Shown: positions 1 through 7,595, numbered from the stretch's first letter. The stretch: 46,083 nucleotides of DNA from Candidatus Kaiserbacteria bacterium RIFCSPHIGHO2_12_FULL_56_13 (GCA_001781625.1 MFLS01000002.1:19957-66039); one strand, 5' to 3'. Program-made: numbers and translations. Notes: generated by a model not told the origin, from the letters alone.

Positions 1-10
1 GACGAAATCG
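1..10 (+). ncRNA. Hammerhead ribozyme, 3' fragment cut off by the window start
   Basis: GACGAAAUCGGAAGUUCUUU (1-20) aligns with GAUGAAACAGAAGUUCUUUGAG (310-331) and GACGAAACAGAAACUCUUUGAG (2368-2389). That covers the stem II 3' strand, GAAA, stem III and the shared downstream motif. Confidence 0.4.
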
Positions 11-83
11 GAAGTTCTTTAATAACATTGAGTAGCGTCGAGTTAGATCCTCTCCAACAGAGTCCCGTAGCGTATGGTCCTGG

Positions 84-105
84 GCGAGCTGAGAAATCTG
101 CTCGC
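84..105 (+). repeat. Hairpin H0 of the GGCG...CGCC family
   Basis: GCGAGC (84-89) pairs with GCUCGC (100-105). The loop contains GAGAAAUC, as in H1 and H4, and the hairpin is preceded by GG. Confidence 0.4.
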
Positions 106-165
106 TACTCTTTTGCCACTGTTCAGCACCGTGGCGTTGAGCAAAGTTAAACAGGGTGTGGTAAT

Positions 166-186
166 GGGCGGAGAGAAATCTTCGCC
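166..186 (+). repeat. Hairpin H1 of the GGCG...CGCC family
   Basis: GGCGGAGA (167-174), GAAA loop, UCUUCGCC (179-186). 8 bp including one G-U. Confidence 0.5.
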
Positions 187-240
187 AAAATATCTAGTCT
201 GGTTTTGTACGCCCAACAGGCGCACTGCCTACTAGTGTAT

Positions 241-268
241 GGGGCGGGAGAACCAAGATTCTCCCGCC
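241..268 (+). repeat. Hairpin H2, immediately 5' of hammerhead 1
   Basis: GGCGGGAGAA (243-252) pairs with UUCUCCCGCC (259-268), 10 bp. It is followed by AACUGUC exactly as for H3. Confidence 0.6.
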
Positions 269-270
269 AA

Positions 271-319
271 CTGTCCCAGGATGTGTTTCCTGGCTGACGA
301 GTCCGAAAGGATGAAACAG
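271..319 (+). ncRNA. Type III hammerhead ribozyme, copy 1
   Basis: Stem III is CUGU (271-274) with ACAG (316-319). The cleavage triplet GUC ends at C275. Stem I hairpin is CCAGGA-UGUGUU-UCCUGG (276-293). Core is CUGACGA (294-300). Stem II is GUCC-GAAA-GGAU (301-312). GAAA lies at 313-316. Confidence 0.85.
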
Positions 320-365
320 AAGTTCTTTGAGTACGAACCACCGAACCATCAGAGGGAAAATCCAG

Positions 366-2162
366 ATGAAAAATCTCGATCTCATGGGGTCATTCCCGTA
401 CGATCGTCACCGCGTTATGCGAGACGGCCAGAAGATCGCCTTTGAAGAACTCAGGGGCGTCGAAGGTAAGGCAATCATCGAATCACCAGTCGGCACGGGT
501 AAAACCGCTGTCGGCATCACCTATCTTTCGGCGCTCGAAAAGCGTTTGAAGGCAGAACGGAATTTCGGCGGTCACCTGTTCTACATCGCGCCCAACAAGG
601 CGCTTGTCGAACAGGTGCATACGCTCTATCCGAAGGTGAATGTCGTCTACGGCCGCAACGAGCACCCGTGCTTCTACTACAAGGACGAGGACCTCAAGGC
701 GGACGAAATTCCCTGCTCAATGCTCACGGACTGCCCGCACAGGGTGGACCAGGAGACTGGGAAGACGCATACGGCCGGGGCGAAGCCTTGCGCGTACCTC
801 AAACAGAAGTACGAAGCAAAGAAGAATCCCGGCATCATCGTCTGCACCAACGCCTTCTTTCTCTACTCGGTTCTGTTCTCGAAAGAGTTTACGCCGGTAG
901 GGGTCGTCATCGACGAGGCGCATCGCATGGCACAGTCCATCCGCTCGGTTCTCCAGACGGAGATCACCGACTGGAAGGTTCAACGAGCGGTGGATGTGCT
1001 CGACGAGGTGAATCCTCGCCAATGCGCGAAGCTCTCGGCGTTCCTCGCGAGCATGAAGCGCACGGTAAAGCACTACGCGATGGGCAAGGAGACTCTGCTC
1101 GAAGAAGAGCAAATCCAGCGTCTCTACGAAACACTCTCTGCGGTTAATACTGACGCGCTCGAAGGCGAAGTCCGCCGGGCGATCGCGAAGGGTAAACTCG
1201 ACAAGAAGGCTGACCGTGAGGTCATCAAGCAAGTCGAGGACATCGCGCGGAGTGTGCGCCGCTTCAGGTACGCGCTCTCGTTCACGATGGCGACCAAGGA
1301 GCGACCGCCCCTTTCATTTATCTTCGCGTACGGCAAAACGGAGATGGGCGAGCACGACAAGGTGCAGTACAAAATCGTGGTCAAGGACTACTATGTGGTT
1401 CCCTTGATCAAGAAGATGCTGCCGGAGCACACGCTCGCCTACTCGGCGACGATATCGGACCCCGAACTCTTCGAGTTCGAGACCGGTATCAAGGGAACCT
1501 TCGCGTCAATCCCCTCCGGATTCCCGGTGGAGAACGCGCGAATCTATATGCCTACCGATACGGCAAATCTTGCGACCGCGAAATGCGGGAAGCAGGATAA
1601 GACGAGAAGCTTGCGGCTCATCGCCAAGACCGCGAAGAAATTCGCGCGAAAGGGGATGCGTTCGTTGATCATCGTCGTGTCAAACGCCGAGCGGCAGAAG
1701 TTCCTGATGCTCGCCGGAGAAGAAGGTCTTGACGTTCTCTCCTACGGAGAGGGAGTCACCGCTCGCGAATGCGCTTTTCGCTTCCAAAAGGGCGAGGGCG
1801 AATGCTTGGTCGGCACCATGGCTAACTTCGGCGAGGGTATCGACCTCCCGAAACAGATGGCACCGGTCATCTTCTACCTTCGGCCCGGCTATCCGCGCCC
1901 CAACGACCCACAAACGGTCTTTGAGGAGCGGCGCTTCCGAAATCGGCGGTGGGCGCTCTGGAATTGGCGCGTGATGGTGGAGTTGCTCCAAGTGCGGGGA
2001 CGGAACATTCGTTCCGAAACCGACCTCGGGGTCACCTTCCTCATCTCACAGCAGTTCCGGCGCTTCGCGTTTGGAGCGCTTCCCTCTTGGCTCGAGCCCG
2101 CGTATCGCGGCAACTCGACTCTCGACGAATGCGTGAAGGACGCGATGAAGTTGTTGTCGTAG
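366..2162 (+). CDS. DinG/XPD (Rad3-related) superfamily 2 DNA helicase with a 4-Cys Fe-S cluster insert
   Basis: Walker A is ESPVGTGKTAVG and the DEAH box is VVIDEAHRM. Four Cys lie between them (HPCFYY...IPCSMLTDCPH...KPCAYL). Motif V is FGEGIDLP and motif VI is QVRGRNIRSETDLG. ATG 366 is preceded by AGAGGG. The TTG at 327 in the ORF track lies only 8 nt downstream of the ribozyme's 3' end (319), with no visible SD. Confidence 0.85.
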   Translation: MKNLDLMGSFPYDRHRVMRDGQKIAFEELRGVEGKAIIESPVGTGKTAVGITYLSALEKRLKAERNFGGHLFYIAPNKALVEQVHTLYPKVNVVYGRNEHPCFYYKDEDLKADEIPCSMLTDCPHRVDQETGKTHTAGAKPCAYLKQKYEAKKNPGIIVCTNAFFLYSVLFSKEFTPVGVVIDEAHRMAQSIRSVLQTEITDWKVQRAVDVLDEVNPRQCAKLSAFLASMKRTVKHYAMGKETLLEEEQIQRLYETLSAVNTDALEGEVRRAIAKGKLDKKADREVIKQVEDIARSVRRFRYALSFTMATKERPPLSFIFAYGKTEMGEHDKVQYKIVVKDYYVVPLIKKMLPEHTLAYSATISDPELFEFETGIKGTFASIPSGFPVENARIYMPTDTANLATAKCGKQDKTRSLRLIAKTAKKFARKGMRSLIIVVSNAERQKFLMLAGEEGLDVLSYGEGVTARECAFRFQKGEGECLVGTMANFGEGIDLPKQMAPVIFYLRPGYPRPNDPQTVFEERRFRNRRWALWNWRVMVELLQVRGRNIRSETDLGVTFLISQQFRRFAFGALPSWLEPAYRGNSTLDECVKDAMKLLS

Positions 2163-2209
2163 AGCATTGCAGAGTTATGTCTTGTCCACTGAGATGCTCA
2201 AAGGTACTG

Positions 2210-2241
2210 GATGAGAAGGAGTAGAAATATTCCTTCTCATC
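2210..2241 (+). other. Strong stem-loop downstream of the helicase stop
   Basis: GAUGAGAAGGA (2210-2220) pairs perfectly with UCCUUCUCAUC (2231-2241), 11 bp. The loop is GUAGAAAUAU. No clean U-tract follows (GCUUUGC). Confidence 0.4.
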
Positions 2242-2298
2242 GCTTTGCACTGTCCTGCCGCGTCGTTCAGTTGGGTAAATCATTGTTCTTTATTGTTC

Positions 2299-2326
2299 GG
2301 GGCGAGGAAACTTCGGTTTCCTCGCC
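2299..2326 (+). repeat. Hairpin H3, immediately 5' of hammerhead 2
   Basis: GGCGAGGAAAC (2301-2311), UUCG loop, GUUUCCUCGCC (2316-2326), 11 bp. It is followed by AACUGUC. Confidence 0.6.
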
Positions 2327-2328
2327 AA

Positions 2329-2377
2329 CTGTCGGAGGATGTGTATCTTCCCTGATGAGTCCGAAAGGACGAAACAG
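2329..2377 (+). ncRNA. Type III hammerhead ribozyme, copy 2 (canonical core)
   Basis: Stem III is CUGU (2329-2332) with ACAG (2374-2377). GUC cleavage is after C2333. Stem I is GGAGGAU-GUGU-AUCUUCC (2334-2351). Core is CUGAUGA (2352-2358). Stem II is GUCC-GAAA-GGAC (2359-2370). GAAA lies at 2371-2374. Confidence 0.9.
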
Positions 2378-2402
2378 AAACTCTTTGAGGAGACACCATG
2401 AA

Positions 2403-2546
2403 ATGAAATCAAGCAACAAGACGAAGACGCGAGTCAAAGTCACCCTCGTCAGCACTTCGCCAATGATTCAGAACGCCTTCAGGGAGATCCTGTACTTCAC
2501 GTGCGGGACGGAGAGAAATCTCCGTCGTACATCCTGTCGGGTTTAG
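2403..2546 (+). CDS. Possible 47-aa basic peptide downstream of hammerhead 2
   Basis: GAGGAG lies 5 nt before ATG 2398, which opens only ATG-AAA-TGA. The overlapping ATG 2403 opens MKSSNKTKTRVKVTLV.... The 3' end runs through hairpin H4. No recognisable family. Confidence 0.2.
   Translation: MKSSNKTKTRVKVTLVSTSPMIQNAFREILYFTCGTERNLRRTSCRV
2501..2531 (+). repeat. Hairpin H4 of the family
   Basis: GACGGAGA (2508-2515), GAAA loop, UCUCCGUC (2520-2527). Extended by GUGC/GUAC with a GG bulge. Confidence 0.5.
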
Positions 2547-2587
2547 CTCACTTGCTTCAAGTTGCGTCAGGTCCCCTCAGGTGAACT
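2534..2587 (+). other. Probable decayed hammerhead remnant after H4
   Basis: CUGUC|GGG follows H4 just as the cleavage site follows H2 and H3. GCGUCAG-GUCC-CCUC-AGGU-GAAC (2564-2585) aligns with CUGAUGA-GUCC-GAAA-GGAC-GAAAC, but the catalytic core is mutated. Confidence 0.3.
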
Positions 2588-2589
2588 TA

Positions 2590-2615
2590 GGGGCGGAGAA
2601 CTACAGTTTTCCGCC
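2590..2615 (+). repeat. Hairpin H5 of the family
   Basis: GGCGGAGAAC (2592-2601), UACA loop, GUUUUCCGCC (2606-2615). 10 bp with one G-U. Confidence 0.55.
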
Positions 2616-2684
2616 ATTCACCCTGCTTGGTACCGTTGGGTCGTGTGTCGCAGGGTTTGCTGTTCGTTCTCAAATCTTCAGTTC

Positions 2685-2714
2685 GGGGCGGAGAAGGACT
2701 TGGTCTTTCCTGCC
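2685..2714 (+). repeat. Hairpin H6 of the family
   Basis: GGGGCGGAGAAGGAC...GUCUUUCCUGCC. About 12 bp if one A is bulged; two G-U pairs. Confidence 0.45.
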
Positions 2715-2789
2715 ACATTTTTGAGTGCAGACAGGTGGCGTGTCGCATTCTTCGTTATTCTGCAGCAAAGTCGAACTTCAGTCGAGTGC

Positions 2790-2817
2790 GGGGCGGAGAG
2801 ACTTTGGTCTCTCCGCC
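2790..2817 (+). repeat. Hairpin H7 of the family
   Basis: GGCGGAGAGAC (2792-2802), UUUG loop, GUCUCUCCGCC (2807-2817). Perfect 11 bp. Confidence 0.6.
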
Positions 2818-2878
2818 AAACATCATTGTGCAATATCGTCAGGCTGACTCTAGTTTTCTACAGTCTTATAACGTATGG

Positions 2879-2916
2879 AGCGGGTTCCCCTAAAAAGGAA
2901 CCCGCTATTTTATTTT
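2879..2916. terminator. Bidirectional intrinsic terminator (end of hairpin array / rarA)
   Basis: AGCGGGUUCC (2879-2888) pairs with GGAACCCGCU (2897-2906), followed by AUUUUAUUUU. It overlaps the rarA stop. Confidence 0.6.
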
Positions 2917-4091
2917 CCGCCAGAGGCGGATCCGCCTTCGGCGGACAAATACTTCTTTTTCTTTAGCTTTTCCGGTAATAGCGACTCCGTATCGCCATAC
3001 ATTTCGTATCCTTTTCCATAATCCAAATCCTTCATGAATTTCGTTTCAGGGTTGCGGAGTTTTTTGGGGACGGGGAGATTACCGAAGGCCTGCACATCGG
3101 CTTGCGCTGACCGCAACGCGTCATACGCGCTACGATTTTTCTTACACTGCGCGAGGTACGCAACGCCGTGAGCGAGCGTAATGGCGCATTCAGGGTAACC
3201 GATCGTCTCGCAGGCGCGAAATACGGCGTTTGCGACCACAAGCGCAGTTGGTTGTGCAAGGCCGATGTCTTCTGAAGCGAAAACGACCATGCGGCGCGCG
3301 ATAAAAAGAGGGTCCTCCCCTGCTTCGACCATGCGTGCGAGGTAGTAGAGGGCGGCATCAGGCTGCGAGGCACGCATGCTTTTAATAAATGCACTGATGG
3401 TGTCATAATGCTCCTCGCCTTTTTTGTCGTAGCGCAGGTGCGGCGACTCAAGCGCTTTGTTCAAGGTTTCGACATCTACTTTTCCATACAAACTCTGCGC
3501 ACCCTCAAGCATTCCGAGTGCTTTACGTGCGTCGCCATTTGCGTACCCAAGGAGCCAATCAAAAGTTTTTGCATCTATTTTAATTTTTGTGCTCTTTACG
3601 ATTGCTTTCAGCGCTTCTTCAGAGAGTGGCTCGAGCACGAATACTCGGCAGCGCGAAAGCAAAGCAGGTATCACCTCGAAACTCGGATTTTCGGTCGTAG
3701 CGCCGATCAGGGTGAGAACACCGTTTTCGACATACGGCAAGAGAAAATCCTGCTGTGCTTTATTGAAACGATGGATCTCGTCGAGAAAAAGGAGTTTCGG
3801 TTTCTCAAACATCGCGATTTCATTGCGCCCCTTCTCACTCCCAACAATTTTCTTGATGTCCTCTTTGCCCGCAGAGACCGCCGAGAGCTCGTGAAGTTCG
3901 GCATCGAGTGCGCGCGCATAAATGCGCGCGATAGTCGTCTTGCCAGAGCCCGGCGGACCCCAAAGGATGAATGAGAAGAGGTGCTTTTTCTCTATCGCAA
4001 CGCGAAGAGGTTTACCCGCCCCTACCAAATGCTCTTGCCCCACGACTTCGTCGAGGGTTTGCGGCCTCAAGCGCGCAGCCAACGGCTCCAT
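2910..4091 (-). CDS. rarA: Replication-associated recombination protein A (AAA+ ATPase RarA/MgsA)
   Basis: N-terminus is PLAARLRPQTLDEVVGQEHLVG. Walker A is WGPPGSGKTTIAR and Walker B is LLFLDEIHRFNK. The C-terminal MgsA domain includes YDTISAFIKSMRASQPDAALYYLARM. Confidence 0.9.
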   Translation of the reverse strand: MEPLAARLRPQTLDEVVGQEHLVGAGKPLRVAIEKKHLFSFILWGPPGSGKTTIARIYARALDAELHELSAVSAGKEDIKKIVGSEKGRNEIAMFEKPKLLFLDEIHRFNKAQQDFLLPYVENGVLTLIGATTENPSFEVIPALLSRCRVFVLEPLSEEALKAIVKSTKIKIDAKTFDWLLGYANGDARKALGMLEGAQSLYGKVDVETLNKALESPHLRYDKKGEEHYDTISAFIKSMRASQPDAALYYLARMVEAGEDPLFIARRMVVFASEDIGLAQPTALVVANAVFRACETIGYPECAITLAHGVAYLAQCKKNRSAYDALRSAQADVQAFGNLPVPKKLRNPETKFMKDLDYGKGYEMYGDTESLLPEKLKKKKYLSAEGGSASGGK

Positions 4092-4092
4092 G

Positions 4093-4163
4093 TGCGGGAT
4101 GGGAGAATCGAACTCCCGCTCTCAGTTTGGAAAACTGACGTTCTACCATTAAACTAATCCCGC
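4093..4163 (-). tRNA. tRNA-Gly (UCC)
   Basis: The reverse complement folds as a cloverleaf with acceptor GCGGGAU/AUCCCGC. Anticodon stem is UCAGU/ACUGA with loop UUUCCAA, giving UCC. T arm is GGGAG-UUCGAUU-CUCCC. No encoded CCA. Confidence 0.8.
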
Positions 4164-4202
4164 TTACTCGCGAGGATACCATTTTTGAGGTAGCGTAGGA
4201 GC

Positions 4203-5315
4203 ATGCCGCTGTATTTGTGGGCGACAATAGTTTTCGCCATCGTCATCGCGCTTAGCGCAAGCGTGTATAACGCGCCGAGGGTGGCCACTGCCCCGCCTAC
4301 CCAAAACACGATTGAGACAGTAACGGATGAAGAAGTTGTTTGGGGTGACGTGCCGACAGCGAGCGAGCCAGTTGTCGAAGCATCGCCGTTTGTCGAGCCC
4401 GCACAACCTGCGGCTACGACCCCGATCTCTCAACCGCCTGCATCACAGCCGGTCGCGGTTGCCGTACAACCCACACAGAGCGAATTTGAAAGTGCGGCCG
4501 AAGCACTGCGCGCTGCCCTCGTCAACATATTTTGCATCTCCGGTCGTCGTGATATCATCTCGATCTCTGGCTCGGGCGTCATCGTTGATCCGCGCGGCAT
4601 CATCATCACGAATGCGCATATCGCACAATACTTTTTGCTCGCCGGCGATCCCGCGCTTGAGGTCTCGTGCATGATACGTGCCGGGAGCCCCGCAAAAGAT
4701 CTCTATCGCGGGAGCCTCATGTTCCTCCCGCCCTCGTGGGTCGCACAAAACGCCGACATTCTGACTAAAGACGACCCGACTGGGAATGGCGAATACGACT
4801 TCGCTTTTATCGCCATCACGGGGAGTGCAACCGCTTCATCCTTGCCGAGCATCTTCGCCCATGTGCCGCTTGGCGAGGGCGATGCCCACGCTCTCGAGCC
4901 CGTCATCATCGGCGCCTATGCGGCACAATTTCTTTCATCGAGCCAGTTGCAGTCGGCGCTCTTCCCCACCCTTGTGTATGGTTCGATAAAAGAGGTTTTT
5001 ACTTTTGTCGCGACGACGATCGATGTCATCACGCTTGGCGGCTCGGCGGCGGCACAAGAGGGCTCTTCAGGCGGCGGAGTGGCACGCACCGACGGCACCT
5101 TAGGCGGCCTTATCACCACCTCGACGATTGAGGGCGATACCTCTGCGCGCACCTTAGGCGGAATCACGGCGTTATACATTCGCCGCGCCTATGAAGCCGA
5201 GACCGGTACAACACTTACAACGCTCATGTCGAAGTCGCCAGTTGAAGCGGCTGCCAGCTTCGCGCCGCAGATACCCGCGCTCCGCGCGCTCCTCACTGCC
5301 GCTCTTTCGCAATAA
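4203..5315 (+). CDS. Membrane-anchored trypsin-like (S1 family) serine protease
   Basis: N-terminal TM segment is LYLWATIVFAIVIALSA. GSGVIVDPRGIIITNAHIAQY provides the catalytic His context, EYDFAFIAI the Asp, and EGSSGGGVA the Ser. Confidence 0.7.
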   Translation: MPLYLWATIVFAIVIALSASVYNAPRVATAPPTQNTIETVTDEEVVWGDVPTASEPVVEASPFVEPAQPAATTPISQPPASQPVAVAVQPTQSEFESAAEALRAALVNIFCISGRRDIISISGSGVIVDPRGIIITNAHIAQYFLLAGDPALEVSCMIRAGSPAKDLYRGSLMFLPPSWVAQNADILTKDDPTGNGEYDFAFIAITGSATASSLPSIFAHVPLGEGDAHALEPVIIGAYAAQFLSSSQLQSALFPTLVYGSIKEVFTFVATTIDVITLGGSAAAQEGSSGGGVARTDGTLGGLITTSTIEGDTSARTLGGITALYIRRAYEAETGTTLTTLMSKSPVEAAASFAPQIPALRALLTAALSQ

Positions 5316-5318
5316 CGT

Positions 5319-5389
5319 TCGGGCCGCCGAGAGTCGAACTCGGTCTACCTGCTCCCAAAGCAGGCGTACTACCATCATACGCCGGCCCG
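5319..5389 (-). tRNA. tRNA-Pro (UGG)
   Basis: Acceptor is CGGGCCG/CGGCCCG. Anticodon stem is CCUGC/GCAGG with loop UUUGGGA. T arm is CCGAG-UUCGACU-CUCGG. Confidence 0.8.
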
Positions 5390-5399
5390 CTTTTGCATC

Positions 5400-5792
5400 C
5401 TACACGATTTGCGGCAAGTAGCGGACACGAGCGCGACCGTCGTGAGCTCGAAGCCACACCAGCGCTCCGTCGACCTGCCACTCTCCCTCCCAGTTCTTTT
5501 GCATGACATACCACTCCCCCGTTCGTGCAACCTTGCGCACTTTCGCTTCGTGGAGATTTAAAGAAGGATCATATTCGTCTGTCGGTTCTGCCGTTGGGAA
5601 TTCGCGACAGACAACCGTCTTAACCTCGACAAAGTGAAGAGTGTTACCCTCGTGGGCCACAAGGTCGATCTCTCCTGTTTTGCGGGTGACATTGCGGTCG
5701 ATAATCTTTATGCCGTGTCGGCGAAGGTATTCGGCCGCCACCCGCTCTCCCAGAGTCCCAATCTCCCTCCTACTCTTACCAAAGAGGTTCAT
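5400..5792 (-). CDS. YraN family (UPF0102) endonuclease-like protein
   Basis: GERVAAEYLRRHGIKIIDRN...GEIDLVAHEGNTLHFVEVKT is the typical YraN signature. Confidence 0.85.
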   Translation of the reverse strand: MNLFGKSRREIGTLGERVAAEYLRRHGIKIIDRNVTRKTGEIDLVAHEGNTLHFVEVKTVVCREFPTAEPTDEYDPSLNLHEAKVRKVARTGEWYVMQKNWEGEWQVDGALVWLRAHDGRARVRYLPQIV

Positions 5793-5920
5793 GTCCTTTA
5801 ATTATAGCCCTTATTTGCTTGTTTTTCTTTAAAGTCAAGATATTTGGGGGTATGTCCTTTATCCCCATGTCCCCAACTTTATCCCCTACTTCGCTCAAGC
5901 TACGTAAGGTAAGCACTTTG

Positions 5921-5991
5921 TGCGGATAGCGAGAATCGAACTCGCGTCTCGTCCTTGGCAAGGACGCATTCTACCACTAAACCATATCCGC
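5921..5991 (-). tRNA. tRNA-Gly (GCC)
   Basis: Acceptor is GCGGAUA/UAUCCGC. Anticodon stem is CGUCC/GGACG with loop UUGCCAA. T arm is GCGAG-UUCGAUU-CUCGC. Confidence 0.85.
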
Positions 5992-6019
5992 TTTTCGCGA
6001 GGCACTATACCATATCTTG

Positions 6020-6091
6020 CGCCTCGGCCAGGACTCGAACCCAGAATTCGACGTCCGAAGCGTCGCGTGATATCCATTTCACCACCGAGGC
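6020..6091 (-). tRNA. tRNA-Arg (UCG)
   Basis: Acceptor is GCCUCGG/CCGAGGC. Anticodon stem is CGACG/CGUCG with loop CUUCGGA. The T loop is UUCGAGU and the T stem has two G-U pairs. Confidence 0.75.
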
Positions 6092-6131: not shown

Positions 6132-7595
6132 ATGAGCCATGCTGTGCCAAAAGAGGTTGCGGGCGTCTCCTCTGCCCTTCGCAACGCTGGTTTTGAGGCC
6201 TATTTGGTTGGTGGATGCGTCCGCGATCTCCTCCTTAGCAGAACGCCGAAGGACTGGGATATCACCACGAATGCCTCCCCGGAGCAAATCCAGGTCGTGT
6301 TTCCTGACTCTTTTTACGAAAATGAATATGGCACCGTGGGTGTAAAAACTGGCGCCCTCGATCCGGCTCTCGCCATTGTTGAAGTAACTCCCTATCGTAA
6401 AGAGTCGGGCTACTCTGACAAGCGCCGGCCTGACTCGGTTGAGTTTGGCGCCTCGCTCGAAGAGGATCTTGCAAGACGCGACTTCACCGTGAACGCCATC
6501 GCCCTCGGTGGCTCTCAAGGACAACCTGTTGACCCGTATAAAGGACAAAAGGACATAAAGGACAAAGTCATACGTGCCGTAGGCAAGCCAGAAGAGCGCT
6601 TTAACGAAGACGCACTCCGTATTATGCGGGCCGTGCGGCTTGTCGCCGAGCTTGATTTTGCCCTCGACACAGACACGGCCGCGGCAATGAAGTTACACGC
6701 GAAACATCTAGGAGCTATTTCACGTGAAAGAGTCAGGGACGAGCTTGTCAGGATCCTCAATTCAGATTCCCCCATGACAGCCCTAACTCTTGCACAGCAG
6801 CTTGGGCTTTTGGAGTTTATCGCCAAGGATCTCTGCCGGGGTATAGGCGTGGAGCAAAATCAGGCTCATAAATACGATGTTTTTGAACACTTGATGCGTA
6901 CCATGCAGCACGCTGCAGACAAGAGTTACAACTTCGAGACCCGCCTTGCTGGGCTCTTTCATGATGTCTCGAAGCCAGAGACGCGGCGTTGGTCTGACGA
7001 AAAGAATGATTGGACCTTTCATGGCCATGATGTTGTTGGTTCACGTGTAACAAAAAAGGCTCTAGAAGATTTGAAGTTTTCACGGAATACCATAGATAAA
7101 GTCGTGAAACTTGTGAGATGGCACATGTTCTTCTCTGACCCTGAAATAGTGACCACTTCAGCTGTGCGGAGGGTCATTACTAATGTCGGACAAGAGAACA
7201 TTGAGGATTTGCTGAACTTGCGGATTTGTGACCGCATTGGCACTGGGCGGCCAAAGGAGCAACCCTTTCGCTTTCGTAAATACAAGGCCATGGTAGAGCA
7301 GGCCCTGCGAGACCCCGTTTCAGTTGGGATGCTTAAGACTGACGGCAACCGGCTCATGGAGAAGTTTCGCGTGGAACCTGGGCCAAAGATAGGATGGGTT
7401 TTACATGCTCTTCTTGAAGAGGTGCTTGATAACCCAAACCTTAATACTGAGGAGTATATGGATAAAAGAGCGGCTGAAATGCTCGCCATGAAGGAGACAG
7501 AACTTAAGAAGCTGGGCCAATCGGGCAAAGAAAAGCGTGAAAAGAGGGAAGAGGAGGAGCTGAAAAAGATAATGGAGAAGCACCACGTTTGCTAG
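6132..7595 (+). CDS. cca: CCA-adding tRNA nucleotidyltransferase with HD domain
   Basis: Polymerase-beta motif is AYLVGGCVRDLLL...DWDI, followed by RDFTVNA. The HD domain includes LFHDVSKP. Confidence 0.85.
   Translation: MSHAVPKEVAGVSSALRNAGFEAYLVGGCVRDLLLSRTPKDWDITTNASPEQIQVVFPDSFYENEYGTVGVKTGALDPALAIVEVTPYRKESGYSDKRRPDSVEFGASLEEDLARRDFTVNAIALGGSQGQPVDPYKGQKDIKDKVIRAVGKPEERFNEDALRIMRAVRLVAELDFALDTDTAAAMKLHAKHLGAISRERVRDELVRILNSDSPMTALTLAQQLGLLEFIAKDLCRGIGVEQNQAHKYDVFEHLMRTMQHAADKSYNFETRLAGLFHDVSKPETRRWSDEKNDWTFHGHDVVGSRVTKKALEDLKFSRNTIDKVVKLVRWHMFFSDPEIVTTSAVRRVITNVGQENIEDLLNLRICDRIGTGRPKEQPFRFRKYKAMVEQALRDPVSVGMLKTDGNRLMEKFRVEPGPKIGWVLHALLEEVLDNPNLNTEEYMDKRAAEMLAMKETELKKLGQSGKEKREKREEEELKKIMEKHHVC

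What the first reader, a model, noticed from the sequence alone, without database searches (positions are those of the whole stretch)
84..2817. Family of at least eight GGCG...CGCC hairpins with compensatory changes, forming an ~80-100 nt periodic array
The hairpin locations are H0 84-105, H1 166-186, H2 241-268, H3 2299-2326, H4 2501-2531, H5 2590-2615, H6 2685-2714 and H7 2790-2817.

They share a 5' GG(G)GCG and a 3' CGCC. The middle of the stem and the loop differ, yet stay paired:
- H2: GGCGGGAGAA / UUCUCCCGCC
- H3: GGCGAGGAAAC / GUUUCCUCGCC
- H7: GGCGGAGAGAC / GUCUCUCCGCC

Distances between successive 3' ends are 81 and 82 nt on the left side, and 84, 99 and 103 nt on the right side. H2 and H3 sit exactly 2 nt before a hammerhead. 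The intervening segments are non-homologous and show no convincing coding signal.

The layout looks like an array of small RNAs that each end in a protective or recognition hairpin. Alternatively the hairpins could be repeated protein-binding sites. It is not a CRISPR array.
Basis: seen in the sequence. Interest (0 to 1): 0.75.

Follow-up and report, generated by a model that had tools for sequence, protein, structure and literature searches.

The report
Guide-RNA tails of a VIPR array
The repeated GGCG...CGCC hairpins are real: each is the conserved 3' cap of a roughly 85-nt guide RNA (vrRNA) in a hammerhead-interspersed VIPR locus, a CRISPR-related RNA-guided system first described in 2026 preprints, here in a Kaiserbacteria (CPR) genome.

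Summary
A covariance model of the hairpin finds seven of the eight copies (H0 is missed). It finds nothing in the other 43 kb of the window. It also finds about 125 further distinct copies (about 130 in all), all on the gene strand, in homologous loci from other Patescibacteria.

The "non-homologous" segments between hairpins are not featureless. They carry about 10-14 pentanucleotide repeats, n-[G/C]-[U/C]-N-N, in fixed register with the hairpin on their 3' side.

The same contig encodes a small RAMP protein 1.6 kb upstream of the window. Its family profile matches the solved SUSP1 Vipr protein, and its model resembles Cas7/Csm3. The window itself encodes a DinG/XPD-like helicase and type III hammerheads placed 2 nt after some hairpins.

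This matches VIPR systems (bioRxiv 10.64898/2026.04.26.720920): Vipr protein, vrRNAs made of GGY/NN repeats plus a structured 3' tail, accessory helicases or nucleases, and ribozyme-interspersed arrays.

The hairpins are therefore vrRNA tails. This is a new member of a known, very recent kind. No targets were found.

The parts
1..11 (+). 3' end of a type III hammerhead cut off by the window start, followed by the conserved AAGUUCUUU motif at 12-20
   Evidence: The complete ribozyme is at L001 5658-5705, directly after a family hairpin. Window position 1 equals L001 position 5695 with 0 mismatches.
31..106 (+). vrRNA unit 1: ten n-S-Y-N-N repeats (31-80) plus the tail hairpin H0 (83-106)
   Evidence: 8/10 repeats are in frame. 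The hairpin folds at -14 kcal/mol. H0 is too divergent for model R1.
115..186 (+). vrRNA unit 2: repeats (115-164) plus the tail hairpin H1 (167-186, GAAA loop, one G-U pair)
   Evidence: 9/10 in frame. R1 hit at 160-192.
191..275 (+). vrRNA unit 3: repeats (191-240), tail H2 (243-268), and AACUGUC up to the predicted hammerhead cleavage site after C275
   Evidence: 8/10 in frame. R1 hit at 236-274, 37.7 bits. The hammerhead follows directly.
271..319 (+). Type III hammerhead ribozyme (core CUGACGA...GAAA; stem II closes with a G-U pair)
   Evidence: Rfam RF00008 at 268-322, 35.8 bits, E 2.4e-5, below GA 48.5. The core and stems were checked by pattern search.
366..2162 (+). DinG/XPD-like SF2 helicase (598 aa), the candidate VIPR accessory (vap) gene
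   Evidence: Pfam Helicase_C_2 and DEAD. phrog_2488 DNA helicase, 2e-37. PADLOC typeIV_DinG PDLC01439, 1.5e-34, full length. NCBIfam DinG/YoaA hits are weak. The gene is syntenic with vipr in more than 15 loci.
   Evidence: 8/10 in frame at offset 0, and 0/10 at offsets +-1. Hairpin seen.
2249..2333 (+). vrRNA unit 5: repeats (2249-2298), tail H3 (2301-2326), and AACUGUC up to the cleavage site after C2333
   Evidence: 8/10 in frame. R1 hit at 2294-2332, 48.2 bits.
2329..2377 (+). Type III hammerhead ribozyme with a canonical CUGAUGA core
   Evidence: Rfam RF00008 at 2326-2380, 40.2 bits, E 1.4e-6.
2403..2546 (+). 47-codon ORF resembling the N-terminal strand of Vipr; probably a truncated vipr remnant
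   Evidence: hhalign against the Vipr family alignment A1: probability 93%, E 3e-7, residues 8-29 aligned to 36-57.
2507..2526 (+). Tail-like hairpin H4 with no periodic guide region upstream (degenerate unit)
   Evidence: R1 hit at 2500-2532, 22.3 bits. Only 2/10 in-frame S-Y.
2535..2615 (+). vrRNA unit 6: 11 repeats plus tail H5 (2592-2615)
   Evidence: 9/10 in frame, run of 11. R1 hit, 26.8 bits.
2620..2714 (+). vrRNA unit 7: periodic region with a 1-nt frame slip near its 3' end, plus tail H6 (2687-2714; bulged A, two G-U pairs)
   Evidence: Windows with >=8/10 S-Y start at 2615-2625. R1 hit, 20.3 bits. Fold.
2725..2817 (+). vrRNA unit 8: periodic region (frame slipped) plus tail H7 (2792-2817)
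   Evidence: A window with >=8/10 S-Y starts at 2725. R1 hit, 46.6 bits.
   Evidence: 8/10 in frame at offset 0, against 0-1 at offsets +-1. It is the only + strand terminator-like site in 1-3000.

Best explanation
The hairpins are the invariant 3' tails of vrRNAs, the guide RNAs of a VIPR (Viral Interference Programmable Repeat) system in a Candidatus Kaiserbacteria chromosome.

What the sequence shows. The locus appears to be one long operon: vipr, array, p119, array, DinG-like helicase, array, terminator. No sigma-70-like promoter is found in window 1-3000. Promoter-like TTGACA motifs lie upstream of vipr, outside the window, but I saw these only by eye. Each ~85-nt unit holds about 10-14 pentanucleotide repeats (n-S-Y-N-N, a relaxed GGY/NN) followed by GG and a GC-rich hairpin G(G/U)CGG...CCG(C/A)C-A.

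What is inferred from the published SUSP1 system. One Vipr protomer binds each pentanucleotide. The filament is anchored and capped at the structured 3' tail. The NN dinucleotides read double-stranded DNA with a one-nucleotide skip. I infer that the hairpin (i) sets the register and 3' boundary of the filament, (ii) protects the 3' end, and (iii) marks the processing site. After some tails, typically the last one before an ORF, a type III hammerhead cuts 7 nt downstream. That cut separates the guide from the following mRNA or unit. How the other unit boundaries are cut is unknown. The helicase is the likely effector or accessory (vap) protein.
For: 1. Hairpin family. It is specific to this locus, strand-specific, and conserved in structure but not in sequence across about 130 distinct copies (131 units used; 129 distinct rows) drawn from about 20 non-redundant loci among the 24 sources searched.
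2. 5-nt periodicity. S-Y sits at positions -6/-5, -11/-10 and so on to -51/-50 relative to the stem in 131 units. 83 of 119 units have >=8/10 in-frame S-Y against a background of 0.265. In the window the count is 50/80, p=1.6e-11. Windows with >=8/10 make up 20 of 1031 positions in the arrays against 23 of 43088 outside.
3. Register. The repeats are locked to the downstream hairpin, not the upstream one.
4. Vipr homologue. The adjacent 239-aa protein (P0001, L001 3366-4085) has an AF2 model (pLDDT 75) whose top 50 PDB matches are all CRISPR RAMP-effector chains, nearly all Cas7/Csm3-type backbone subunits (E down to 3e-8). Its family profile hits only 'SUSP1 Vipr protein' 36pp_D in the PDB, E 1.3e-5, over the G-loop region. 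It also hits the phage family phrog_4652.
5. Synteny. vipr and the DinG-like helicase occur together in more than 15 Patescibacteria loci. Arrays lie between the genes in nearly all of those loci; hammerheads were detected in 8 of the non-redundant ones.
6. Guide-like evolution. Variable regions are unrelated between lineages (0.4-0.5 identity, which is the frame baseline), while some are shared between close relatives. In six orthologous vrRNA pairs, substitutions avoid the NN positions: 3/132 against 25/198 at the g/S/Y positions, Fisher p=9e-4.
7. Published description. The VIPR preprint describes ~100-nt vrRNAs with 9-16 YNNGG repeats or related consensus forms (NNNGG, YNNNG, NNNNG), an invariant structured 3' tail, hammerhead-interspersed arrays, and helicase or nuclease vap genes. 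The cryo-EM companion describes the 3' cap and 3'-to-5' filament assembly.
Against: - No RNA data are available for this locus. Expression, processing and Vipr binding are all inferred.
- The pentanucleotide consensus is relaxed: the first G is weak and the second position is G or C, rather than GGY.
- The tail is a plain hairpin, not the pseudoknot seen in SUSP1.
- Sequence-level similarity to SUSP1 Vipr covers only about 55 residues.
- Exact one-nucleotide-skip searches for five vrRNAs in IMG/VR found no target.
- The vipr gene lies outside the window; the window holds only a remnant.
- H4 lacks a guide region. H6 and H7 have frame slips.
- The VIPR type (I-VII) could not be assigned because the paper's figures and tables are not held.
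Confidence: 0.88

Rival explanations
1. The hairpins are generic RNA-stability or processing elements of a ribozyme-processed polycistronic operon. They block 3' exonucleases after hammerhead cleavage, and the segments between them are non-functional spacer RNA with no guide role.
For: Hairpins sit directly 5' of every hammerhead, so each cleaved upstream RNA ends in a stable stem. The hairpins have no U-tract. No targets were found.
Against: Most hairpins have no ribozyme after them. This model does not explain the fixed 5-nt S-Y register, the conservation of NN positions, or the obligatory association with a Vipr/RAMP protein.
Confidence: 0.05
2. This is a degenerate or atypical CRISPR array of a reduced type IV-like CRISPR-Cas system (Cas7-like protein plus CasDinG-like helicase). 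On this view the hairpins are diverged repeats and the 55-75 nt segments are contiguous spacers.
For: The helicase matches a PADLOC 'typeIV_DinG' profile over its full length, E 1.5e-34. The RAMP model resembles Cas7/Csm3. The repeat-plus-variable organisation is array-like.
Against: The repeats share only the basal ~6 bp and flanks (mean column identity 65%), and TRF finds no array. There is no Cas1/2, Cas5, Cas6 or Cas8. The NCBIfam Csf4 match is marginal, E 0.004. The 'spacers' have an internal pentanucleotide scaffold that CRISPR spacers lack. The only sequence-level PDB hit of the RAMP is Vipr.
Confidence: 0.04
3. The hairpins are DNA-level repeats: REP/MITE-like palindromes, recombination sites such as attC, or transcription terminators or attenuators.
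For: They are GC-rich palindromes clustered in intergenic DNA. The cassette sits at different chromosomal sites in different genomes.
Against: G-U pairs and the asymmetric flanks (GG 5', A 3') make the motif strand-specific; reverse-strand model hits cover only the stem and score lower. There are no copies elsewhere in the 43 kb of chromosome. H0-H7 have no U-tract. The spacing and register are tied to an RNA-type 5-nt code.
Confidence: 0.02

Closest known systems
VIPR systems with hammerhead ribozyme-interspersed vrRNA arrays (bioRxiv 10.64898/2026.04.26.720920, fig. S19; examples from types I and V; types III-V carry helicase or nuclease vap genes)
   Same: A small Vipr RAMP gene flanked by long intergenic arrays. 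~100-nt units made of pentanucleotide repeats plus a structured 3' tail. Hammerheads between units. A helicase accessory gene. No CRISPR array. Chromosomal rather than viral location, as in the 25% cellular fraction of VIPR loci.
   Different: The exact type could not be assigned here. The consensus is n-S-Y/NN rather than GGY/NN, closest to the paper's 'YNNNG' class. Only some units carry a ribozyme. The arrays are interleaved with three genes and hold about 20 units. I could not establish whether this Kaiserbacteria clade is in the paper's dataset.
SUSP1 / P. fulva type II VIPR (the experimentally characterised systems; cryo-EM in 10.64898/2026.04.26.720927)
   Same: The Vipr G-loop region aligns (E 1.3e-5). 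The variable tract has 9-16 repeats followed by a 3' cap structure. The arrays hold several vrRNAs.
   Different: The SUSP1 tail is a pseudoknot and its vap genes encode DNA-binding proteins. SUSP1 is phage-encoded, has no hammerheads, and has a strict GGY motif.
CRISPR repeat hairpins bound and cut by Cas6 (types I-E, I-F and IV-A crRNAs)
   Same: A GC-rich stem-loop at the 3' end of each mature guide that serves as the protein handle. The guide region is coated by a RAMP (Cas7) filament. A DinG-family helicase partner, as in type IV-A.
   Different: CRISPR repeats are near-identical and are added by Cas1-Cas2. Spacers pair contiguously. Processing is by a Cas6 protein, whereas here a cis ribozyme or an unknown nuclease does the cutting.
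Type III hammerhead ribozymes in bacterial and phage operons (Rfam RF00008)
   Same: The conserved catalytic core, three stems with stem III open, and placement between cistrons.
   Different: Bit scores are below the Rfam gathering threshold. Stem III is only 4 bp. Each ribozyme is coupled to an upstream vrRNA tail hairpin 2-4 nt away.

Membership tests
VIPR system | A Vipr protein: a small single-RRM RAMP with a G-loop and thumb, in a non-CRISPR context | tested here: met
   P0001 (239 aa) lies 1.6 kb upstream of window position 1 on the same contig (L001 3366-4085). Its AF2 model matches Cas7/Csm3 folds. Its family profile hits SUSP1 Vipr 36pp_D, E 1.3e-5, including the GxxGRF G-loop. The window itself holds only a 47-aa remnant.
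VIPR system | vrRNA variable region made of tandem pentanucleotide repeats (GGY/NN or a related consensus), 9-16 or more units | tested here: met
   n-S-Y-N-N repeats, 10-14 units, in 131 units from about 20 loci. In the window, 50/80 in frame, p=1.6e-11. The consensus is relaxed compared with GGY.
VIPR system | An invariant, structured 3' tail that caps each vrRNA | tested here: met
   A covarying hairpin with conserved base and flanks. The repeat register is locked to the hairpin on the 3' side. It is a hairpin rather than a pseudoknot.
VIPR system | An accessory vap gene predicted to act on DNA (DNA-binding protein, nuclease or helicase) | tested here: met
   DinG/XPD-like helicase at 366-2162, syntenic with vipr in more than 15 loci.
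VIPR system | No CRISPR array and no other cas genes at the locus | tested here: met
   No tandem array in the window. PADLOC and Pfam give no Cas hits except the DinG-like helicase.
VIPR system | vrRNAs are expressed as discrete small RNAs and co-purify with Vipr | not testable with these tools
   This needs sRNA-seq and pull-down experiments. Only the operon layout (no internal promoter, one terminator) and the ribozyme sites can be inferred.
VIPR system | NN dinucleotides specify DNA targets (usually mobile elements) under the one-nucleotide-skip rule | tested here: inconclusive
   Exact-match searches for five vrRNAs in IMG/VR gave 0 hits. Only exact matches could be searched, whereas the paper used >=80% NN identity. 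There is no self-target above chance. Indirect support: NN positions are conserved in orthologous vrRNAs, p=9e-4.
CRISPR array | Near-identical direct repeats separated by unique spacers of similar length, with cas1/cas2 or effector genes | tested here: not met
   Hairpins share only basal pairs and flanks (65% mean column identity). TRF finds no array. No adaptation genes are present.
Type IV CRISPR-Cas | Csf1/Csf2/Csf3 (plus Cas6) effector genes with CasDinG and a CRISPR array | tested here: not met
   Only one RAMP and one DinG-like helicase are present. The PADLOC typeIV_DinG profile matches, but NCBIfam cas_csf4 is marginal (E 0.004) and there is no array.
Intrinsic (Rho-independent) terminator | A GC-rich stem-loop followed directly by a U-tract | tested here: not met
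   H0-H7 have no U-tract. Only the hairpin at 2879-2906 qualifies.
Hammerhead ribozyme type III (RF00008) | CUGANGA...GAAA core, closed stems I and II, open stem III, and a score at or above the Rfam gathering threshold | tested here: inconclusive
   The core and stems are present with E values of 1e-6 to 2e-5. The bit scores of 35.8 and 40.2 are below GA 48.5. Cleavage was not tested.
REP / MITE-type dispersed palindromes | Many copies dispersed around the chromosome, in either orientation | tested here: not met
   The model finds no copy in the other 43 kb of the window. All full-length hits in all loci are on the gene strand inside the arrays.

The most novel reading that the evidence does not exclude
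This Kaiserbacteria/Patescibacteria clade could be a distinct VIPR variant. A cis hammerhead coupled to a simple hairpin tail would take the place of a Cas6-like processing step. The code would be relaxed to S-Y/NN. The effector would be a DinG-family helicase specifically related to type IV CasDinG. That combination would tie VIPR evolutionarily to type IV CRISPR-Cas (RAMP filament plus DinG, interference without a nuclease).
Probability: 0.2. Interest if true: 0.65.

Novelty: new member of a known kind. Interest (0 to 1): 0.42.

Why it matters
VIPR is a newly reported mode of RNA-guided DNA recognition, proposed to pre-date CRISPR. This locus supplies a large natural set of guides from an uncultivated CPR lineage: about 20 in one operon and over 100 across relatives.

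It offers three things that can be used directly:
- A simple hairpin tail whose distance to the last repeat is fixed. This gives a clean rule for annotating vrRNAs.
- Comparative evidence that the NN positions are the constrained part of the guide.
- A natural ribozyme-hairpin module that defines guide 3' ends without a protein nuclease.

It also shows that a plain reading of raw sequence can pick out such arrays. The kind of system is already described, so the value here is confirmation and detail rather than discovery.

Tried and rejected
- Rfam at gathering and at E<=5 gives no family for the hairpins. It returns only hammerheads and a spurious L20-leader match on the terminator.
- I considered a type IV CRISPR variant after the DinG profile hit and the Cas7-like fold. 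I dropped it once the Vipr match and the 5-nt code were found.
- Literature searches for hammerhead with DinG, CRISPR, CPR or Cas7 led nowhere. The lead came from the PDB sequence hit.
- Single-sequence scans of viral contigs with the helicase and with Vipr found nothing. An alignment-based scan of viral contigs also found nothing, and tblastn against phage genomes found nothing. This clade was therefore not seen on viruses.
- Target searches with exact one-nucleotide-skip patterns for five vrRNAs gave 0 hits. The self-target scan gave only one chance-level 16/20 hit.
- The AF2 model of the 119-aa protein was unusable, pLDDT 47.7. Pfam, PHROGs, PADLOC and NCBIfam give nothing for p119 or p139.
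- I tested whether the conserved GUUCUUU motif after each hammerhead forms an alternative pairing with stem II. Minimum-free-energy folds keep the ribozyme stems, so this is not supported.
- The paper's supplement text gives no taxonomy or type table, so the VIPR type could not be assigned.

Full report
**The observation**

The eight hairpins are in the sequence at the stated coordinates and fold as described, at -13 to -24 kcal/mol. The spacings between their 3' ends (81, 82, 84, 99 and 103 nt) are correct.

H2 and H3 are each followed by AA and then a type III hammerhead. Rfam places RF00008 at 268-322 and 2326-2380, with E 2.4e-5 and 1.4e-6. Both are below the gathering score, but the full catalytic core is present. 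The first 11 bases of the window are the 3' end of a third hammerhead.

G-U pairs in H1 and H6 and the asymmetric flanks (GG on the 5' side, A on the 3' side) show that the + strand RNA is the structured species.

**Is it more than chance?**

I built a covariance model (R1) from 23 hairpins taken from this and related loci. In the window it finds H1-H7 and nothing else in the remaining 43 kb at E<=1. H0 is too divergent for the model.

Across 24 sources it finds about 150 full-length + strand hits, about 130 of them distinct. Essentially all lie in the intergenic arrays of homologous loci. Reverse-strand hits cover only the stem and score lower.

On 129 distinct hits, 98.7% of cells are paired. 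All 11 pairs show double-sided changes, with 345 such cells against 71+-13 in shuffles. Examples are G-C, U-A and A-U at stem position 2. Two caveats apply: the seeds were chosen as hairpins, and this alignment was fitted to the model.

**Context**

The rest of the window is ordinary chromosome: MgsA, four tRNAs, the CCA-adding enzyme, XerC/D-like recombinase, ComM.

An exact look-up of the helicase found longer contigs. L001 is identical to the window over 1-2910 and adds 5.7 kb on the left. It shows that the array continues upstream: about 20 hairpin units and five hammerheads, interleaved with three genes. Those genes are a 239-aa protein, a 119-aa protein, and the DinG/XPD-like helicase at window 366-2162.

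The organism is Candidatus Kaiserbacteria bacterium RIFCSPLOWO2_02_FULL_56_11.

The pairing of the 239-aa protein with the helicase recurs in more than 15 other Patescibacteria loci, at 32-75% protein identity. In the closer relatives the 119-aa gene lies between them. In some of these genomes the cassette sits at a different chromosomal site. Hairpin arrays lie between the genes in nearly all of these loci. Hammerheads were detected in eight of the non-redundant ones, always 2-4 nt, rarely about 15 nt, after a hairpin.

**What the proteins are**

The helicase has Helicase_C_2 and DEAD domains. It matches phrog_2488 and one PADLOC 'typeIV_DinG' profile over its full length. Curated DinG, YoaA and Csf4 models match only weakly.

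The 239-aa protein has no Pfam hit. Its AF2 model (pLDDT 75) matches Cas7/Csm3 RAMPs; the top 50 PDB matches are all CRISPR RAMP-effector chains, E down to 3e-8. A profile of its family hits exactly one PDB sequence, 'SUSP1 Vipr protein' (36pp_D), at E 1.3e-5 across the G-loop.

That hit led to two 2026 preprints on VIPR systems. They describe:
- Vipr, an ancestral RAMP.
- vrRNAs of about 100 nt, made of 9-16 YNNGG (GGY/NN) repeats followed by an invariant structured 3' tail.
- Accessory vap genes, which are helicases or nucleases in types III-V.
- 'Hammerhead ribozyme-interspersed arrays' in some types.
- Alternative repeat consensus forms: NNNGG, YNNNG and NNNNG.
- A cryo-EM structure with one Vipr protomer per pentanucleotide and a 3' structure that caps the filament, which assembles 3' to 5'.

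**Testing the VIPR prediction on the RNA**

If the hairpins are vrRNA tails, the 'non-homologous' segments should carry a 5-nt code. They do.

- I anchored 131 units on the first stem base. Positions -6/-5, -11/-10 and so on to -51/-50 are [G/C][U>C], with A/T or G almost excluded. The two following positions are unconstrained, and the preceding one is weakly G.
- 83 of 119 units have at least 8 of 10 in-frame S-Y dinucleotides, against a background frequency of 0.265.
- In the window the in-frame count is 50/80, against 9-21 in the other four frames (p=1.6e-11).
- H0, H1, H2, H3 and H5 score 8-9 of 10. H6 and H7 are periodic but have a one-base frame slip. H4 has no periodic region and sits at the end of a 47-codon remnant of the vipr N-terminus.
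- Windows with >=8/10 make up 20 of 1031 positions in the arrays, against 23 of 43088 positions elsewhere.
- The register is tied to the hairpin on the 3' side (peaks 0.74-1.00) and not to the one on the 5' side (0.43-0.54). Each hairpin therefore closes the unit that precedes it.
One has a divergent tail at 2210-2241. The last has a tail at 2879-2906 that is also the operon's only intrinsic terminator.

**Evolutionary behaviour**

The variable regions are unrelated between lineages whose proteins are 60-75% identical. Some are shared between close relatives (L016 and L018), while neighbouring units differ.

In six orthologous pairs, substitutions fall on the scaffold positions (25/198) and avoid the NN dinucleotides (3/132; Fisher p=9e-4). 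Changes at the Y position are almost all C-to-U or U-to-C. This is what a code carried by the NN positions predicts. The sample is small.

**Mechanism**

Shown here:
- A conserved, covarying, strand-specific hairpin at a fixed distance from a pentanucleotide repeat tract.
- Ribozymes placed to cut 7 nt after some tails, after C275 and C2333 in the window.
- A single terminator at the end, and no sigma-70-like promoter inside 1-3000.

Inferred by homology with SUSP1:
- Vipr protomers coat the repeats.
- The hairpin caps and registers the filament and protects the 3' end.
- The NN positions read DNA with a one-nucleotide skip.
- The helicase acts downstream.

Unknown:
- How units without a ribozyme are separated.
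- The targets. Exact-match skip-rule searches for five vrRNAs in IMG/VR found nothing, and there is no self-target above chance.

**Rival explanations**

Four alternatives were considered: plain stability hairpins, a degenerate type IV CRISPR array, REP or attC-like DNA repeats, and terminators. Each fails on at least one tested feature:
- The fixed 5-nt register.
- The lack of near-identical repeats and of other cas genes.
- Strand specificity and confinement to the locus.
- The lack of U-tracts.

**Novelty**

The kind of system, including ribozyme-interspersed arrays and helicase accessories, is described in the 2026 preprints. One of that paper's five seed proteins has a UniProt accession (A0A1F4YLN4) in a range that I recall as belonging to Rifle CPR genomes; I did not check this. 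This is therefore a new member, not a new kind.

Several details may go beyond the text I could read: the plain hairpin tail with its G(G/U)CGG...CCG(C/A)C-A base, the relaxed S-Y motif, the terminator-tail, the interleaving of about 20 guides with the genes, and the NN-conservation signal. The VIPR type could not be assigned.

Noticed in passing
window 2403-2546: A 47-codon ORF directly after the second hammerhead. Its residues 8-29 align to the first beta-strand region of Vipr (hhalign probability 93%). It looks like a truncated duplicate of the vipr 5' end and finishes in the tail-like hairpin H4.
   Followed up: partly
window 12-20, 320-328, 2378-2389; also after hammerheads in L007, L009 and L023: A conserved (A)AGUUCUUU / ACUCUUU motif lies a few bases after every hammerhead. 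It is complementary to the stem II 3' strand and loop (AAAGGAC), but minimum-free-energy folds do not favour that pairing. Its function is unexplained.
   Followed up: partly
L001 2543-3210 (upstream of the window); L023 6087-6730: A two-gene unit, a 139-aa protein plus an 83-aa zinc-ribbon protein, lies next to vipr. In L001 promoter-like TTGACA motifs precede it (my reading of the sequence, not a tool result). In L023 and L024 it is present but on the opposite strand. It may be a further accessory or regulatory pair. No family hits were found.
   Followed up: partly
L001 4471-4830 and homologues (P0021-P0028): A 119-aa protein is conserved between the first and second arrays in the closer relatives. 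It has no family hit, and its AF2 model was unusable (pLDDT 47.7).
   Followed up: partly
L023 9269-9582: An extra ~104-aa ORF is preceded by its own hairpin plus hammerhead inside the array of a related locus. The L023 locus has about 25 vrRNA units.
   Followed up: no
L001 4278-4332: The first hammerhead of the locus has CCGAUGA instead of CUGAUGA in its core (U4 changed to C), so it may be inactive. The hammerhead at window 271-319 closes stem II with G-U instead of the usual G-C.
   Followed up: no
L016 versus L018 (arrays at 2100-3300 and 5200-5760 versus 2790-4330 and 6260-6730): Closely related loci share some vrRNAs at 86-100% identity while neighbouring units are unrelated, and L018 has more units. 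Orthologous units keep their NN dinucleotides, but the upper stems and loops of their tails differ. This suggests unit-wise turnover or recombination.
   Followed up: partly
L001 4892-4926; L002 60-95: Public assemblies break inside the arrays: a run of N inside one hairpin, and a low-complexity G/A/C artefact at a contig end. The window also begins inside a hammerhead. Repeated hairpins and ribozymes appear to fragment short-read assemblies here.
   Followed up: no
window 1-2910 versus L007-L010: The cassette lies between HU and MgsA in this genome but between an M13 or M16 peptidase and AlaRS in other Kaiserbacteria-like genomes. It has therefore moved, yet no integrase or phage genes flank it and no viral contig carries this Vipr clade.
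   Followed up: partly
window 4092-6091 (- strand): Four tRNA genes lie here: Gly-UCC, Pro-UGG, Gly-GCC and Arg-UCG. They are interleaved with a trypsin-like peptidase gene and a YraN/UPF0102 gene and sit next to the CCA-adding enzyme gene. This is ordinary chromosome and unrelated to the finding.
   Followed up: no
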